Made by a program: the position numbers
DNA from: a virus
Lineage: Duplodnaviria; Heunggongvirae; Uroviricota; Caudoviricetes
Virus record (IMG/VR): IMGVR_UViG_2740892526_000019
Length of the DNA: 10,894 nt
Strand: one strand, 5' to 3'
Shown here: in pieces, positions 1 through 3,000 of the stretch
Layout of the letters: each line of letters begins with the position of its first letter
How positions within the stretch are numbered: the first letter of the stretch is position 1

Positions 1-3000
1 ATGAGCAGAGCACTTAACAAACTGAGCGATACACAGCTGAGGAAAATCAACGGCACACCCGCCCAAAAAACAGCCTTTCTTAATGACGGTGGAAACCTGA
101 GCGTCAGGCATTCAACCAGTGGCCTTTTAACCTGGTATTTCACTTACAGGGCCGGAACGGGAAGGGGGGCACCACCGGAACGCATTAAGCTGGGAAATTA
201 TCCTGATCTGAGCCTGAAATCAGCCAGGGAAAAAGCCGCCCAGTGTCGCGCATGGCTGGCAGAGGGGAAAAATCCACGTCATGAGCTTAATTACACCGTA
301 CAGGAAGCGTTAAAGCCGGTAACGGTTGGCGATGCGCTCACCTACTGGCTTGAGTCGTACGCAAAGGAAAACCGCGTGGATTATGCCGCCCTGAAAAAGC
401 GCCTTAATAATCACGTAATACAGCACATTGGTGCTATGCCGCTGGATAAATGCGAGCTACGGCACTGGCTGGCCTGTTTTGACCAGGTGGCAAAGCGAAC
501 GCCTGTTACTGCCGGATTCTTGCTACAGACGTGCAAACAGGCGCTTAAGTTCTGCCGGAGGCGGCGCTATGCAATCAGCAACGTTCTTGATGATATGAGT
601 GTGGCGGACGTTGGGAAAAAACCGGATATAAGCGAGCGTGTCTTAAGCACCAAAGAACTGGGCGAATTATTGCAGGCACTGGACAAAAAAATATTCTCCC
701 CCTACTACATCGCGTTAATCCGCCTCCTGATTGTGTTCGGATGCCGGACGGTAGAACTGAGGTTATCGGAGATCAGCGAGTGGGATTTTACCGAAATGCT
801 CTGGACCGTGCCGAAAGAACACAGCAAAACGAAGGTGGCAATATTCCGGCCCATACCGGAAGCAATACTGCCGTTCGTCACGCAGCTGGTGGAGCAGAAC
901 AGGCACACGGGTTTATTGCTGGGGGAAGTGAAACAGGAAACAAGCGTGTCGCAGTACGGCAGATTAGCGCATAGGAGGCTAAATCACCCTCACTGGTCAC
1001 TACATGACATCCGGCGCACCTTTACAACGATGCTGAACGATTTAGGCGTGGATCCTCACGTCGTGGAGCAGCTTACAGGCCACCAGATGCCAGGAATGCA
1101 GCGAGTTTATAATCATTCCCGTTATCTGGATGCTAAACGCAATGCGCTGGATATGTGGACGGAGCGGTTAGGGATACTGGCGGGAACACATGAAAACGTA
1201 ACCACGCTACCAGTAGCCAGAAGAAAATAATTTTTTTCGTGTTTTTTCAGCATGCGCATACTGGATATGCGAACAGATACAACGTGCAGCAATGAGCAAC
1301 AATGTGGAACAACCACGAACAAGAGGCGAAAAAGCGTACGGATTTATAAGTAGCTGATTTTTAATGTGTTACTGGTTTTTTATACACTAGCGAATCACTC
1401 TTTAAAGAGCGAGAAAAAAGGCATGAAACAATATTTTATGCCTTTGTATTAACATGAATTTAAAAGATTTTATTCTTACTGTTTCATTTTCTGTAAATCA
1501 TACATCCTCAGTATTTGCCATTCATCACTCTAGCGGGAACAATACGACACAATAAGACACCTGATGACTCTTTAAGAAACGAAAGGGGGCAATAGTGTTA
1601 AGCACTGATCGGTTTATACGTGAAAAAGAATGCGAAAAACTAACCGGCCTTAGCCGTACGTGTCGCTACCGCCTGGAAAAGGCCGGACAATTCCCATCAC
1701 GTCGTAAACTTGGCGGTCGTTCCGTTGGCTGGTCTTTATCCGAGGTTCTGGCCTGGAAGGATAGCTGCAAGGCAGTTCATTAATCACGCTGGCGGCACGC
1801 AGCCGCCACACATCAATCATCTGAACACAGAGCTATAACCATGAAGATTGAATATACGCCAGAACGTGGGCGGGGATTCGTTCGCCCTGGTGAAACTGAA
1901 AAACAACAAAATTGGGGTTTTTCAGGTATAAAAAAAGCGGCCCCGAAATGGAGCCGCCTTTCTGAACAGATAACCCGCTGCGCCGTTTGTGTGTGTGATC
2001 CCAAACATAAGCACGGGGATGATAGCCGCTATCAGGCTGGTGGGCAATGCAATCAGTCTGGTTCAGTTCGTTGCCATACCTGCAATGAGCGCTTTTCCCT
2101 GTACTCTTTAAGGAATTGCTCAAGGGCAAAAGCACATGGTGCGAATCTTTCTGATTCATGCTCTATCTTTCTGCGCCGTCTTTTCCGTGCCGGTGATAAT
2201 GTTTTGGTCAATTCTTTATCGGTCATTGTGTTGTCCTGCATAGCAATGCGCCGTAATACCTCACACCACGGCGCTGATAGTTTTTATCCTTTGGGTTCTA
2301 TACCGCGCCGCTTTAGTTCAGTACGCCCCAACTCTTTAAGCCAGTTGGCTAGGCTTATGCCGTCGCTCTGTGCTTCTTTATCGAATTGCTCTTTTAGCTC
2401 TGGAGAAATTCGCATTCTGAATTGTGGGGATTGCCCGTCCCCTTTAGGGCTTTTATCGCGTTTGATTGTTGACAAGTGGTCACCTATTGAATTAGCCTTT
2501 CTATTGTTAGGTGGTCACCTTAACACAAGAGCACTTAAAAAAGCAAAGCCCCGCAAGTGTCATTACCACTCGCAGGGCTTCTAACCAACAACGTAAACTA
2601 GGAGCCGTTATGGTTGCTGTAAATCATATACCACACCTTGTACACACACAAACGGCCTTTGTGTGGCGTTTTCTGGCACTGAGTGCCGGAGAATCTCAAA
2701 TCATCCACGTAACCGCCTGGACGGAACGCGAAGCGCGTAGCCGTTGCCCGTCAGGTTGTGTTGCTGTATTTGCCGCCCGTATTCGTCAGGGGGTGTGCCA
2801 TGCTTAAAACCTTCCGTGTATTTGCCAGCGCTGTTAACCCACTAGGCCACACAATTGGTATCGCTCAGAATGTGAAGGCTGTTAATGTTCAGACGGCTAT
2901 TGCTGCGGTGAGAAGCGAATCATCAGAATATGGCTTATCACAAGTCATTATTTCAGCAGTGTATGAATTAAAAGAGGTGCATTAATGAAGGAAATTACAT

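What the first reader, a model, noticed from the sequence alone, without database searches (positions are those of the whole stretch)
2053..2475. Leftward reading frame stays open for 423 nt, broken by a single in-frame TAA
The RHH ORF (2284..2475) and the downstream ORF (2053..2241) are in the same frame. The only stop between them is TAA at 2284..2286, followed by 14 open codons (KLSAPWCEVLRRIA) before the next Met. This may be a nonsense-split single gene (RHH domain plus basic C-terminal domain), a programmed read-through, or a two-gene RHH-plus-partner cassette resembling an antitoxin/toxin pair. The opposite-strand 247-aa ORF (1841..2584) looks like antisense noise, supporting minus-strand coding.
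Basis: seen in the sequence. Interest (0 to 1): 0.5.

Follow-up and report, generated by a model that had tools for sequence, protein, structure and literature searches.

The report
Arc-like repressor plus small cargo gene
The two leftward reading frames are two separate genes, not a split or read-through gene: a small Arc-type DNA-binding repressor and a 57-residue protein of unknown function, both left out of this genome's annotation and both lying antisense inside a long rightward reading frame that appears to be kept free of stop codons.

Summary
On the minus strand, 2053..2475 is 423 nt with one in-frame TAA, followed by 14 open codons.

The window is the capsid-forming satellite EcCIEDL933 of E. 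coli O157:H7. No fused ~140-aa protein occurs among 90 homolog clusters or 17 related cassettes.

- **Upstream ORF (2284..2475).** It encodes a 63-aa ribbon-helix-helix protein, Arc-like in profile and predicted fold. It is conserved across Enterobacterales next to the icd-like/primase operon and has paired palindromic operators over its own ribosome-binding site and start codon.
- **Downstream ORF (conserved start 2226, 57 aa, PHROG 21027).** It is confined to Escherichia/Shigella and follows at least four different RHH-type genes.
- **Why they share a frame.** A 57-nt linker (stop, hairpin, ribosome-binding site) always joins the two genes, which puts them in the same frame. Alone, this is no more than chance (P about 0.13).
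- **Toxin-antitoxin reading.** It is poorly supported. The RHH gene usually occurs without ORF2, and no toxin family matches ORF2.
- **Opposite-strand ORF.** The 247-aa plus-strand ORF is not simple noise. Its amino-acid sequence is unconstrained, but its openness is conserved (21 of 21 antisense genes; about 5e-4 by chance over nine families). It occupies the position of phage P4 eta.

Interest is moderate.

The parts
2284..2475 (-). RHH (Arc-like) repressor gene: 63 aa, TTG start at 2475, stop TAA at 2284..2286
   Evidence: Profile matches: phrog_228 Arc-like repressor E=5.1e-7; Pfam HicB RHH part E=4.9e-4 and Arc E=0.14. AF2 model pLDDT 81 with extended segment plus helices 25-37 and 42-56. 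Top Foldseek PDB hits are P22 Arc 1myl and 1par, target TM 0.77-0.88. There are 54 homolog clusters, mostly 63-64 aa, in at least 12 genera. The start codon varies among ATG, GTG and TTG at the same position.
2227..2283 (-). 57-nt linker between the two genes: hairpin about 2248..2274 and ORF2 ribosome-binding site AGGA at 2234..2237
   Evidence: The length is exactly 57 nt and the sequence is conserved in 9 of 9 cassettes read, behind four different upstream genes, and again in L019, L036, L037 and EcCICFT073. RNAalifold gives an 11-bp stem whose variants are mostly G-U wobbles valid only in minus-sense RNA. The single-sequence fold is not significant (z=-1.18).
2053..2226 (-). ORF2: 57-aa basic, helical protein of unknown function (alternative upstream ATG at 2241)
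   Evidence: Matches phrog_21027 (unknown function) at E=1.2e-15. There are 36 homolog clusters, all Escherichia/Shigella, with a conserved core ERFAPCAFALExFLKEY and whole-codon indels. Non-identical replacements score like a sense frame. The AF2 model has two helices, 12-27 and 29-54, at pLDDT 70. No match in Pfam, NCBIfam, PADLOC, PDB sequences or PDB folds. An identical protein is encoded in EcCICFT073.
1928..1963 (-). Intrinsic terminator ending the leftward RHH-ORF2 transcript
   Evidence: The stem GGCGGCUCC/GGGGCCGC is followed by seven U residues; -21.7 kcal/mol, z=-4.16, 0 of 200 shuffles fold as well. Equivalent hairpins follow ORF2 in related loci.
2476..2520 (.). Two operator-like boxes: distal palindrome AGGTGACCACCT (2509..2520) and proximal AGGTGACCAC (2476..2485), the latter overlapping the RHH ribosome-binding site and abutting its start codon
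   Evidence: Direct-repeat family D2, 35 bp apart. The same two-box layout occurs in E. coli, Proteus, Dickeya, Edwardsiella and a Serratia-like contig. The central dinucleotide changes in both boxes together (AC, GT, TA, GC). A different RHH type carries GGTAATTACC twice at the same positions, and the YlcI-type gene of EcCICFT073 carries AGGTGTGGCCCAC twice.
2535..2623 (-). Conserved ~88-nt structured RNA candidate, antisense to the ribosome-binding site and ATG of the icd-like gene, ending in an intrinsic terminator (stem 2545..2581)
   Evidence: Terminator-like site with a 15-pair stem. Fold energy -37.7 kcal/mol, z=-4.07. Covariance model R1 finds 27 full-length matches in 29 sources, on the strand opposite icd wherever its position is on record. 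On that alignment 94.6% of cells pair, 12 of 21 pairs show double changes, and 0 of 500 shuffles reach the observed values. No Rfam family matches.
1841..2584 (+). Rightward 247-aa ORF (ECs_1576 / WP_001304194.1), positional analogue of phage P4 eta; it overlaps both minus genes with third codon positions coinciding
   Evidence: Annotated by PGAP and in the Sakai record. No family match. Its replacements score like an antisense frame. Stop-free rightward frames of 660-1616 nt cover this zone in most relatives. This register is open in 20 of 20 antisense genes plus the one further variant in EcCICFT073, against a geometric-mean expectation of 0.47 per gene, and the null model is calibrated on control genes.
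2610..2807 (+). icd-like gene (homolog of P4 Kil), first gene of the replication operon
   Evidence: NCBIfam phage_ICD_like E=5.8e-18. P4 Kil hits the same model at E=1.6e-21.
1595..1783 (+). alpA, the activator needed for induction of this island
   Evidence: Pfam Phage_AlpA E=5.4e-17. An alpA mutation abolishes induction and transfer of EcCIEDL933 (bioRxiv 10.1101/2022.09.08.507074).

Best explanation
The region holds a leftward two-gene operon of the satellite EcCIEDL933.

**Gene 1 (2475..2284).** It encodes a 63-residue Arc-like ribbon-helix-helix protein. I infer that it binds two AGGTGNNCACCT-type boxes, one of which covers its own ribosome-binding site and abuts its start codon, and so represses itself. 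It may also help keep the neighbouring divergent icd-like/primase operon quiet.

**Gene 2 (2226..2053).** It encodes a 57-residue basic, helical protein of unknown function. I infer that it is a cargo gene expressed with the repressor in the resident state. The slot downstream of the repressor is variable and holds other genes, or none, in relatives.

**Linker and terminator.** A conserved 57-nt linker (stop codon, hairpin, ribosome-binding site) joins the two genes, and an intrinsic terminator at about 1930-1960 ends the unit. The shared frame follows from a linker of 19 codons. It does not come from read-through or a nonsense mutation.

**Overlap with the plus strand.** Both genes lie antisense inside a long rightward ORF that sits where phage P4 has eta, between the alpA/vis homolog and the Kil/Icd-like gene. 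That ORF's amino-acid sequence is unconstrained, but its openness seems to be selected. I infer that ribosomes must read across the repressor operon so that alpA-driven transcripts reach the replication genes without premature termination, as reported for P4 eta.

**Shown here:** ORFs, homology, predicted fold, operator-like boxes, linker, terminators, and the open-frame statistics. **Inferred:** DNA binding, co-transcription, the function of ORF2, and translation-dependent antitermination.
For: **Separate genes.**
- No fused protein occurs among 36 ORF2 and 54 RHH clusters.
- ORF2 follows four different upstream genes (two RHH types, YlcI/YnfO, and a 41-aa gene), with mosaic breakpoints at window 2281, 2290 and 2319.
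- The RHH gene stands without ORF2 in Proteus, Dickeya, Edwardsiella and a Serratia-like contig, and in 5 of 6 RHH-bearing species genomes.
- Other genes can follow the RHH gene: a SWIM zinc-finger gene, a 41-aa gene, or a 451-aa gene.

**RHH identity.** Profile matches, the AF2 model and P22 Arc as the top fold match.

**Operators.** Two boxes at fixed positions that change together, and change with repressor type.

**Minus frame is the amino-acid-constrained one.** Mean BLOSUM62 of non-identical replacements is -0.13 (ORF2) and +0.04 (RHH) in the minus frame, against -1.10 and -1.16 in the plus frame. Control genes give -0.63, -0.55 and -0.10 in sense, against -1.20, -1.31 and -1.54 in antisense.

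**Terminators.**

**Plus-frame openness.**
- It is open in 20 of 20 antisense genes in the register that shares third codon positions (expected 0.15-0.82 each). The other registers are open in 0 of 20 and 2 of 20. The YlcI-type gene of EcCICFT073 adds one more case, making 21 of 21.
- Taking one representative of each of nine families, the probabilities multiply to about 5e-4 (my arithmetic).
- The null model is calibrated: control genes show 88 stops against 74 expected, and chunk openness 0.22 against 0.25.
- Stop-free rightward frames of 684-1104 nt run upstream of icd, in frame with it, in 9 of 14 species, and reach 1608 nt in E. coli relatives.

**P4 parallel.** The P4 eta ORF carries Phage_ASH plus a C-terminal Kil that hits phage_ICD_like. 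Its translation-dependent antitermination is summarised in PMC10111431.
Against: - No expression data were available for either strand.
- The plus ORF of this particular window is not in frame with icd. It stops at 2584, 25 nt before the icd ATG.
- Its first start codon (ATG 1841) lies 57 nt after the alpA stop and has a poor ribosome-binding site, so its translation here is less certain than in relatives, where it starts 9-15 nt after alpA.
- Rightward openness is absent in Edwardsiella, the Serratia-like contig and a degraded E. coli element.
- The 20 genes in the open-frame test are not phylogenetically independent.
- Codon-usage likelihood favours the minus frames only modestly: 8.5 nats for RHH and 2.7 nats for ORF2.
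- The linker hairpin shows little true covariation.
- Nothing indicates what ORF2 does.
Confidence: 0.72

Rival explanations
1. Type II toxin-antitoxin pair: the RHH protein is an antitoxin (PGAP names its homologs 'HicB family antitoxin') and ORF2 is its toxin.
For: The gene order, a small RHH gene followed by a small gene in one operon, is typical of such pairs. There is a Pfam HicB match at E=4.9e-4, and PGAP names the homologs this way. In all 17 ORF2-type cassettes seen, the gene follows an RHH-type gene (or, in L004, a 41-aa gene carrying the YlcI/YnfO tail) through the same linker.
Against: - The HicB match covers only the RHH part (profile positions 18-48 of 51) and lies below Pfam's cut-off.
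- The protein has no toxin-binding extension beyond the RHH core.
- ORF2 matches no toxin family in Pfam, NCBIfam or PADLOC. Its all-helical model is unlike the alpha/beta fold of HicA (the HicA fold is from my knowledge).
- Nearly identical ORF2 follows four different upstream genes, three of them RHH-type, which argues against a cognate pair.
- The RHH gene is mostly found without ORF2.
Confidence: 0.08
2. One ancestral ~140-aa gene split by a nonsense mutation at 2284..2286.
For: The two ORFs share a frame and the 14 codons after the stop are open.
Against: No uninterrupted homolog exists in 90 protein clusters. A stop sits at this place in every linker inspected, behind four different upstream genes. 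The RHH protein keeps its 63-64 aa length across genera that lack ORF2. ORF2 has its own ribosome-binding site and a conserved ATG.
Confidence: 0.02
3. Programmed stop-codon read-through producing an RHH-ORF2 fusion.
For: The two ORFs share a frame, the linker is open in 8 of 9 cassettes, and a conserved hairpin lies just after the stop.
Against: The stop is TAA, the most efficient terminator in E. coli (my knowledge). L009 has a second in-frame stop. The linker varies in the way a hairpin plus ribosome-binding site would, and carries an internal ribosome-binding site and ATG. Nothing in the linker shows conservation at the protein level.
Confidence: 0.02
4. Only the plus-strand ORF (as annotated in RefSeq) is real, and the minus ORFs are shadows of it.
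For: PGAP and the Sakai annotation call only the plus ORF here. There are 909 protein clusters for the plus ORF, against 36 and 54 for the minus ORFs. The plus frame is conserved as open.
Against: - The minus ORFs hit RHH, Arc and YlcI profiles and fold as Arc. The plus ORF hits nothing.
- The replacement pattern marks the minus frame as the sense frame.
- The ribosome-binding site, the interchange of start codons, the operators and the terminators are all oriented leftward.
- PGAP itself calls the minus genes in many relatives, including EcCICFT073.
Confidence: 0.03
5. ORF2 is not translated. Its conservation would reflect the 3' part of the leftward RNA acting as antisense to the rightward ORF, or constraints from that ORF.
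For: ORF2 has no known domain and a narrow host range. The codon-usage signal is weak, at 2.7 nats. The C-terminus is variable and frameshift variants exist.
Against: The ribosome-binding site and ATG are conserved. Indels fall in whole codons. K/R and E/D/Q replacements are conservative, with mean BLOSUM62 of non-identical positions -0.13 against -1.10 in the plus frame. A distant homolog (ORF2b of L007) keeps the motif EKFALEDFVDKY at low DNA identity.
Confidence: 0.08

Closest known systems
Arc repressor of Salmonella phage P22 (immI region, arc-ant operon)
   Same: Ribbon-helix-helix fold: the best Foldseek matches are 1myl and 1par, with rmsd 0.9 A over 42 residues, 28% identity and target TM 0.77-0.88. 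It is also a small protein, is the first gene of a short operon, and has paired palindromic operators over its own start region. From my knowledge, the P22 region likewise carries a nearby antisense RNA (sar).
   Different: This protein has a conserved 19-residue N-terminal extension (MSTIKRDKSPKGDGQSPQF). The downstream gene is not an antirepressor. The operon sits in a phage satellite, antisense inside another ORF. DNA binding has not been tested.
HicB-family RHH antitoxins (the name PGAP gives to homologs)
   Same: The RHH DNA-binding part matches Pfam PF05534 positions 18-48.
   Different: There is no N-terminal HicB domain and no HicA partner. The match is below Pfam's cut-off. The gene often stands alone.
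YlcI/YnfO family (NCBIfam NF041551)
   Same: It occupies the same slot, divergent from icd, in 7 of 14 species genomes and in EcCICFT073. It is joined to ORF2 by the same 57-nt linker. There is weak profile similarity (E=0.17 for this protein, 0.0014 for the type-B RHH).
   Different: It is a different sequence family, with a different C-terminal tail (RRQRRKAKExE rather than RGIEPKG) and different repeated boxes upstream.
Phage P4 eta/kil nested genes (Forti et al. 1999, as summarised in PMC10111431)
   Same: A long ORF runs from just after the vis/alpA homolog to the Kil/Icd-like gene. Kil and the window's Icd-like protein hit the same NCBIfam model. For P4, translation of eta is reported to prevent premature termination.
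   Different: In this window the long ORF ends 25 nt before icd in another frame. It has no Phage_ASH domain and no CI/C4 RNA. It contains antisense genes. The P4 eta region has no RHH-like ORF on its opposite strand by inspection of the ORF list (not profile-searched).
PHROG 21027 (unknown function)
   Same: ORF2 matches at E=1.2e-15, and a relative matches at E=3.6e-45 over the full length.
   Different: No function is attached to the family.
Stl/Rpr master repressors of Gram-positive PICIs
   Same: A regulator gene lying divergent from the replication operon of a phage-inducible island (PMC6092414).
   Different: The fold is unrelated (from my knowledge). No evidence yet shows that the RHH protein controls the island cycle, and induction of this island is known to need AlpA.

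Membership tests
Ribbon-helix-helix (Arc/MetJ/CopG) repressors | Strand-helix-helix core of about 45 residues | tested here: met
   The AF2 model has pLDDT above 90 over residues 21-60, with an extended segment followed by helices 25-37 and 42-56. Foldseek hits are almost entirely RHH proteins, with Arc first. phrog_228 matches at E=5.1e-7.
Ribbon-helix-helix (Arc/MetJ/CopG) repressors | Binds palindromic or tandem operators, usually autoregulatory | tested here: inconclusive
   Two conserved boxes lie at fixed positions. They co-vary with each other and with repressor type, and the proximal one covers the ribosome-binding site and abuts the start codon. Binding itself cannot be tested with these tools.
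HicAB toxin-antitoxin system | HicB N-terminal domain plus an adjacent hicA toxin gene | tested here: not met
   Only the RHH part of PF05534 matches, at 20.4 bits against a cut-off of 21. ORF2 and its neighbours have no HicA match.
Type II toxin-antitoxin pairs in general | Strict co-occurrence of a cognate toxin and antitoxin, with a recognisable toxin | tested here: not met
   The RHH gene occurs without ORF2 in most genera. ORF2 follows four different upstream genes. No toxin family matches.
Type II toxin-antitoxin pairs in general | Toxicity of the second gene, relieved by the first | not testable with these tools
   This needs expression experiments.
Programmed stop-codon read-through | Leaky stop in a conserved context, an extension conserved as protein, and no second in-frame stop | tested here: not met
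   The stop is TAA in 8 of 9 linkers. L009 has a second stop. The linker is conserved as a hairpin plus ribosome-binding site.
P4 eta/kil-type nested leader ORF (for the plus-strand ORF) | Long ORF starting next to vis/alpA and ending in frame with Kil/Icd-like | tested here: not met
   In this window the ORF 1841..2584 is out of frame with icd 2610..2807. The feature is met in relatives: 9 of 14 species genomes, L002, L004, L005, L006, L009 and L010, L035, L037 and L038, and EcCICFT073.
P4 eta/kil-type nested leader ORF (for the plus-strand ORF) | Phage_ASH domain and an internal CI/C4-type immunity RNA | tested here: not met
   There is no Pfam hit for the window ORF and no C4 or isrK Rfam hit at E up to 1. 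P4 eta and L004 do carry Phage_ASH.
P4 eta/kil-type nested leader ORF (for the plus-strand ORF) | Translation of the ORF prevents premature transcription termination | not testable with these tools
   Only indirect evidence is available: openness conserved beyond expectation while the amino-acid sequence is unconstrained.
PHROG 21027 (for ORF2) | Profile match | tested here: met
   E=1.2e-15 over residues 1-45.

The most novel reading that the evidence does not exclude
Gram-negative phage-inducible islands and P4-like satellites carry a repressor operon that has gone unrecognised. It consists of an Arc-like or YlcI-like RHH gene, with or without cargo such as ORF2, and a conserved ~88-nt antisense RNA over the icd start. 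The operon is embedded antisense inside a translated eta-like leader ORF.

On this reading, synonymous sites of the minus-strand genes are under selection to keep the rightward frame free of stops. That would allow alpA-driven transcription, coupled to translation, to cross the repressor operon and switch on replication. All embedded genes would then be forced into one register, which would explain why the RHH gene and ORF2 share a frame. The RHH protein would be the repressor whose existence in these islands was called 'unclear' (PMC6092414).
Probability: 0.35. Interest if true: 0.7.

Novelty: new variant of a known kind. Interest (0 to 1): 0.45.

Why it matters
- **Annotation.** In the model islands EcCIEDL933 and, until its re-annotation, EcCICFT073, this zone has been read as rightward 'hypothetical', 'Icd-like', 'ash' or 'Bro' ORFs. 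The conserved leftward repressor gene and its cargo are therefore missing from the O157:H7 annotations.
- **An open question becomes testable.** How Gram-negative islands stay silent is unsettled, and the existence of a repressor was called unclear in PMC6092414. A conserved, apparently autoregulated Arc-like gene and an antisense RNA sitting at the mouth of the replication operon are concrete candidates that can be tested directly.
- **Overlapping genes.** If the rightward frame is kept open by selection across real antisense genes, this would be an unusually clear bacterial case of overlapping genes in which one partner is selected only for being translatable.
- **Domain-swapping analyses.** Some reported mosaicism of 'Bro-zone' proteins may really reflect the shuffling of antisense gene cassettes.

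Tried and rejected
- **Rfam.** A scan of 1200-3800 at E up to 1 gave only sub-threshold matches (rnk_pseudo, STnc50) and no C4, isrK or other family.
- **ORF2 searches with no useful result.** PADLOC gave nothing for the window's proteins (one relative, L006, hit Cas8g at E=6.4e-4, which I read as chance); PDB sequence profile and Foldseek against PDB gave nothing. tblastn against the phage collection gave no match.
- **Third-position periodicity.** It cannot separate the strands, because the two frames share third codon positions.
- **Codon-usage likelihood.** It favours the minus frames only weakly and was not relied on.
- **Arginine-rich RNA-binding idea.** I considered that the arginine-rich N-terminus of ORF2 binds the linker hairpin, as lambda N binds boxB. 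I dropped it because the L006 and L007 variants lose the basic patch while keeping the hairpin.
- **15-nt inverted repeat (1982-1996 / 2642-2656).** I considered it as a regulatory pairing or an inversion site. It is not conserved in L002, L003, L006 or L007, so it is left unexplained.
- **Rightward promoter.** No sigma-70-like rightward promoter was predicted between the RHH gene and icd.
- **Technical failures.** The first attempt to fetch icd loci failed because the alignment was too diverse. The primary P4 paper (PMC94026) is not held, so its content is taken from the summary in PMC10111431 and from memory.
- **Literature.** Searches for ECs1576, YlcI and YnfO found nothing functional.
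Full report
**Where the window comes from.** The window is 100% identical to E. coli O157:H7 EDL933 and Sakai ('prophage Sp7') DNA next to roxA. Its layout matches the capsid-forming phage-inducible island EcCIEDL933 (bioRxiv 10.1101/2022.09.08.507074):
- integrase 1..1230
- alpA 1595..1783
- icd-like gene 2610..2807
- DUF4222 gene and DUF927 primase
- SSB-like gene, capsid, protease and portal

PGAP and the Sakai record annotate the plus-strand 247-aa ORF 1841..2584 (WP_001304194.1 / ECs_1576). They annotate nothing on the minus strand here.

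**Observation.** The reverse complement of 2053..2475 is 423 nt in one frame. A shared frame (1 in 3) together with 19 stop-free linker codons (about 0.40) is not remarkable on its own.

**The upstream ORF is a real Arc-like gene.**
- It matches phrog_228 'Arc-like repressor' (E=5.1e-7), the RHH part of Pfam HicB (E=4.9e-4) and Arc (E=0.14). It also matches several RHH families in NCBIfam weakly.
- A 27-sequence AlphaFold model has pLDDT above 90 over residues 21-60, with an extended segment and two helices. Its best PDB fold matches are P22 Arc (1myl and 1par, target TM 0.77-0.88), followed by CopG, NikA, AmrZ and RHH antitoxins.
- Fifty-four homolog clusters, mostly 63-64 aa, come from Escherichia, Providencia, Proteus, Morganella, Xenorhabdus, Erwinia, Dickeya, Pantoea, Edwardsiella, Sodalis, Pectobacterium and Serratia.
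- The start codon is ATG, GTG or TTG at the same position, behind AGGTG. The TTG at 2475 is therefore the start.

**Position and operators.**
- In Proteus, Dickeya, Edwardsiella and a Serratia-like contig, the gene sits alone on the strand opposite an int / alpA / (Bro, AntA or pRha) / icd-like / primase array. It is divergent from the icd-like gene.
- In 14 species genomes fetched through the icd-like protein, 13 carry an RHH-type gene 130-250 nt upstream of icd and divergent from it. Six are of this family and seven are YlcI/YnfO-like.
- Upstream of the gene lie two boxes 35 bp apart: a distal palindrome AGGTGNNCACCT, and a proximal AGGTGNNCAC that covers the ribosome-binding site and abuts the start codon.
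- The central dinucleotide changes in both boxes together (AC, GT, TA, GC). A second RHH type carries GGTAATTACC twice at the same places, and the YlcI-type gene of EcCICFT073 carries AGGTGTGGCCCAC twice.
- This pattern is what an autoregulated repressor would show. Binding itself is inferred.

**The downstream ORF is a separate gene.**
- Thirty-six homolog clusters, all Escherichia or Shigella, are 41-100 aa long. Only one covers the five residues before MTDKEL. The two 100-aa forms are C-terminal frameshift extensions.
- The family has a conserved core (ERFAPCAFALExFLKEY), whole-codon indels and a variable C-terminus. It matches phrog_21027, of unknown function, and nothing else.
- The AF2 model has two helices at pLDDT 70.

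**The linker.**
- In the nine cassettes whose linker I read, the stop of the upstream gene and the ATG of ORF2 are separated by exactly 57 nt of conserved sequence. It contains an 11-bp hairpin and a CAGGA/CAGGT ribosome-binding site.
- The upstream gene may be this RHH, a second or third RHH type, a YlcI/YnfO gene, or a 41-aa gene that carries the YlcI tail.
- The same 57-nt spacing recurs in the Shigella locus L019, in L036 and L037, and in EcCICFT073. There the ORF2 protein is identical to this one but follows a YlcI/YnfO gene.
- DNA mosaic breakpoints fall at window 2281, 2290 and 2319, that is, at the stop codon or in the last codons of the upstream gene.
- One linker (L009) uses TAG and has a second in-frame stop.
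- The shared frame is therefore a consequence of a 19-codon linker. Nothing supports a split gene or read-through.

**Toxin-antitoxin reading.** It is weak for three reasons:
- The RHH gene usually lacks ORF2. Downstream it may carry a SWIM zinc-finger gene, a 41-aa gene, a 451-aa gene, or nothing.
- Almost identical ORF2 copies follow different upstream genes.
- No toxin family matches ORF2.

The variable slot behind a conserved repressor looks more like a cargo position. This is an inference.

**Which strand codes.** The two candidate frames share third codon positions, so periodicity and synonymous rates cannot separate them.
- I compared the quality of non-identical amino-acid replacements among divergent homologs. 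Mean BLOSUM62 is -0.13 (ORF2) and +0.04 (RHH) in the minus frame, against -1.10 and -1.16 in the plus frame.
- Control genes (alpA, DUF4222, icd) give -0.63, -0.55 and -0.10 in sense, against -1.20, -1.31 and -1.54 in the equivalent antisense frame.
- The minus frames behave as sense. Leftward terminators flank the unit: 1928..1963 (z=-4.16) and 2545..2581.

**The plus-strand ORF is not just noise.**
- In relatives with quite different minus-strand cassettes, a single rightward frame is stop-free from the alpA stop to the icd stop. Examples, as stop-free length over interval length, are 1239/1244, 1602/1605, 1616/1618, 1053/1057 and 924/928 nt, whereas the 99th percentile of shuffles is about 500-570 nt.
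- Other stop-free lengths are 1083, 1608 and 1464 nt in L035, L037 and L038, 1299 nt in EcCICFT073, and 828 and 999 nt in Proteus.
- In 9 of 14 species genomes the icd frame is open for 684-1104 nt upstream of icd. In the other five, another rightward frame of 660-1230 nt overlaps the icd start, as in this window.
- In this register, a rightward stop can arise only at a minus-strand Tyr codon preceded by NNY, or at a His or Gln codon preceded by NNT. Synonymous choices therefore decide whether the frame stays open.
- Resampling synonymous codons gives P(open) of 0.15-0.82 per gene (geometric mean 0.47), yet 20 of 20 genes are open. The other two registers are open in 0 of 20 and 2 of 20. The YlcI-type gene of EcCICFT073 is a further distinct variant and is also open, giving 21 of 21; its ORF2 is the same protein as the window's.
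- Taking one representative from each of nine families, the product is about 5e-4 (my arithmetic).
- The null model is calibrated on ordinary genes of the window: 88 stops observed against 74 expected, and chunk openness 0.22 against 0.25.
- Openness is missing in Edwardsiella, the Serratia-like contig and a degraded E. coli element.

**Parallel with phage P4.**
- The P4 region after vis (an alpA homolog) holds a 214-codon ORF. It carries the Pfam Phage_ASH domain and ends in Kil, which hits NCBIfam phage_ICD_like at E=1.6e-21, the same model that the window's icd-like gene hits.
- According to PMC10111431, summarising Forti et al. 1999, full-length eta is translated from the upstream late promoter, is coupled to the alpA homolog, and its translation prevents termination so that downstream genes are expressed. 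That paper treats this zone of Gram-negative islands as a rightward 'Bro zone'. A term search of it found no mention of opposite-strand genes.
- I infer that the rightward ORF here is the eta analogue, selected for being translatable. If so, the embedded leftward genes must sit in one register, which would also keep them in frame with each other.
- In this window the analogy is imperfect. The ORF ends at 2584, 25 nt before the icd ATG and in another frame. It lacks Phage_ASH. Its first ATG (1841) is 57 nt past the alpA stop and has a poor ribosome-binding site.

**A further element found nearby.**
- Between the RHH promoter and icd lies a leftward structured RNA candidate of about 88 nt (2535..2623). 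It has a conserved -10 element and an intrinsic terminator, and it is complementary to the icd ribosome-binding site and start codon.
- A covariance model built from nine sequences finds it full-length in 27 places across 29 sources. It lies on the strand opposite icd wherever icd's position is on record, including Klebsiella, Enterobacter, Pectobacterium, Rahnella, Proteus, Edwardsiella and EcCICFT073. It is not found in P4.
- On that alignment 94.6% of cells pair, 12 of 21 pairs show double changes, and no shuffle or slid control comes close. The alignment is fitted to the model, which favours the structure.
- Rfam has no matching family.

**Verdict.** The region is a two-gene leftward operon: an Arc-like autorepressor plus a small cargo gene of unknown function. 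Both genes are missing from this genome's annotation, although homologs are annotated elsewhere as 'HicB family antitoxin' or 'hypothetical protein'. The more interesting point is the context. A conserved repressor operon and an antisense RNA lie at the entrance of the replication module of Gram-negative islands, where the existence of a repressor was called unclear (PMC6092414). They are embedded antisense in an eta-like ORF that appears to be kept open. None of this is supported by expression data yet.

Noticed in passing
window 2535-2623 (-): Conserved ~88-nt structured RNA candidate, antisense to the ribosome-binding site and ATG of the icd-like gene. It has a -10 element at 2623-2628 and an intrinsic terminator (stem 2545-2581). 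A covariance model finds it in 27 places across Enterobacterales satellites, with strong covariation. There is no Rfam family, and it is absent from P4.
   Followed up: yes
window 1841-2584 (+) and related loci L002-L040: The rightward frame between alpA and the icd stop is stop-free for up to 1.6 kb in most relatives, although it runs antisense to 1-4 real genes. Databases hold 909 protein clusters for it, many named 'Icd-like' or 'ash family'. PGAP marks fragments of it as pseudogenes ('BRO-N domain-containing', 'Icd-like, incomplete').
   Followed up: yes
window 1982-1996 and 2642-2656: A perfect 15-nt inverted repeat (GCCGTTTGTGTGTGT / ACACACACAAACGGC) brackets the leftward cassette. The right arm lies inside the icd coding sequence and is part of a local palindrome (2645-2665). 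About 4e-4 such repeats are expected by chance in 941 nt (my arithmetic), but it is not conserved in L002, L003, L006 or L007.
   Followed up: partly
L040 (E. coli CFT073 NC_004431.1 1380242-1380652): The model island EcCICFT073 carries the same cassette: a YlcI/YnfO gene, the 57-nt linker, and an ORF2 protein identical to the window's. A 1299-nt rightward stop-free frame covers it, in frame with icd.
   Followed up: partly
L008 820-1176, L038 978-1337, L015 3218-4573, L004/L005 41-aa gene: The slot downstream of the RHH gene holds different cargo in different elements: a SWIM zinc-finger protein, a 451-aa protein, or a 41-aa protein whose C-terminus (IKRRQRRKAKEQE) copies the tail of YlcI/YnfO proteins.
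   Followed up: partly
L002 1920-3149, L003 2584-3219, L004 1672-3267 compared with window 2511-2807: These relatives carry two copies of the Icd-like N-terminal motif (…HTQTAFVWRF…) separated by an 'ash family' segment. The window has one copy and no ash segment, as if it had lost the interval by recombination between the repeats.
   Followed up: no
window 1790-1812 (+): A GC-rich hairpin (GGCGGCACGCAGCCGCC) lies directly after the alpA stop, with no U-run. It sits between alpA and the first ATG of the rightward ORF.
   Followed up: no
window 1833-2159 (-): A 108-aa minus-strand ORF in another frame overlaps the 3' half of ORF2. Frameshifted ORF2 variants (P0011 and P0036, 100 aa) run into this frame, which shows that the ORF2 C-terminus is poorly constrained.
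   Followed up: partly
L007 1233-2358: One E. coli element carries two tandem cassettes in different frames: YlcI plus a distant ORF2 relative, then a third RHH type plus ORF2. Each cassette has the 57-nt linker, and a second copy of the antisense-RNA motif lies between them (1730-1818).
   Followed up: partly
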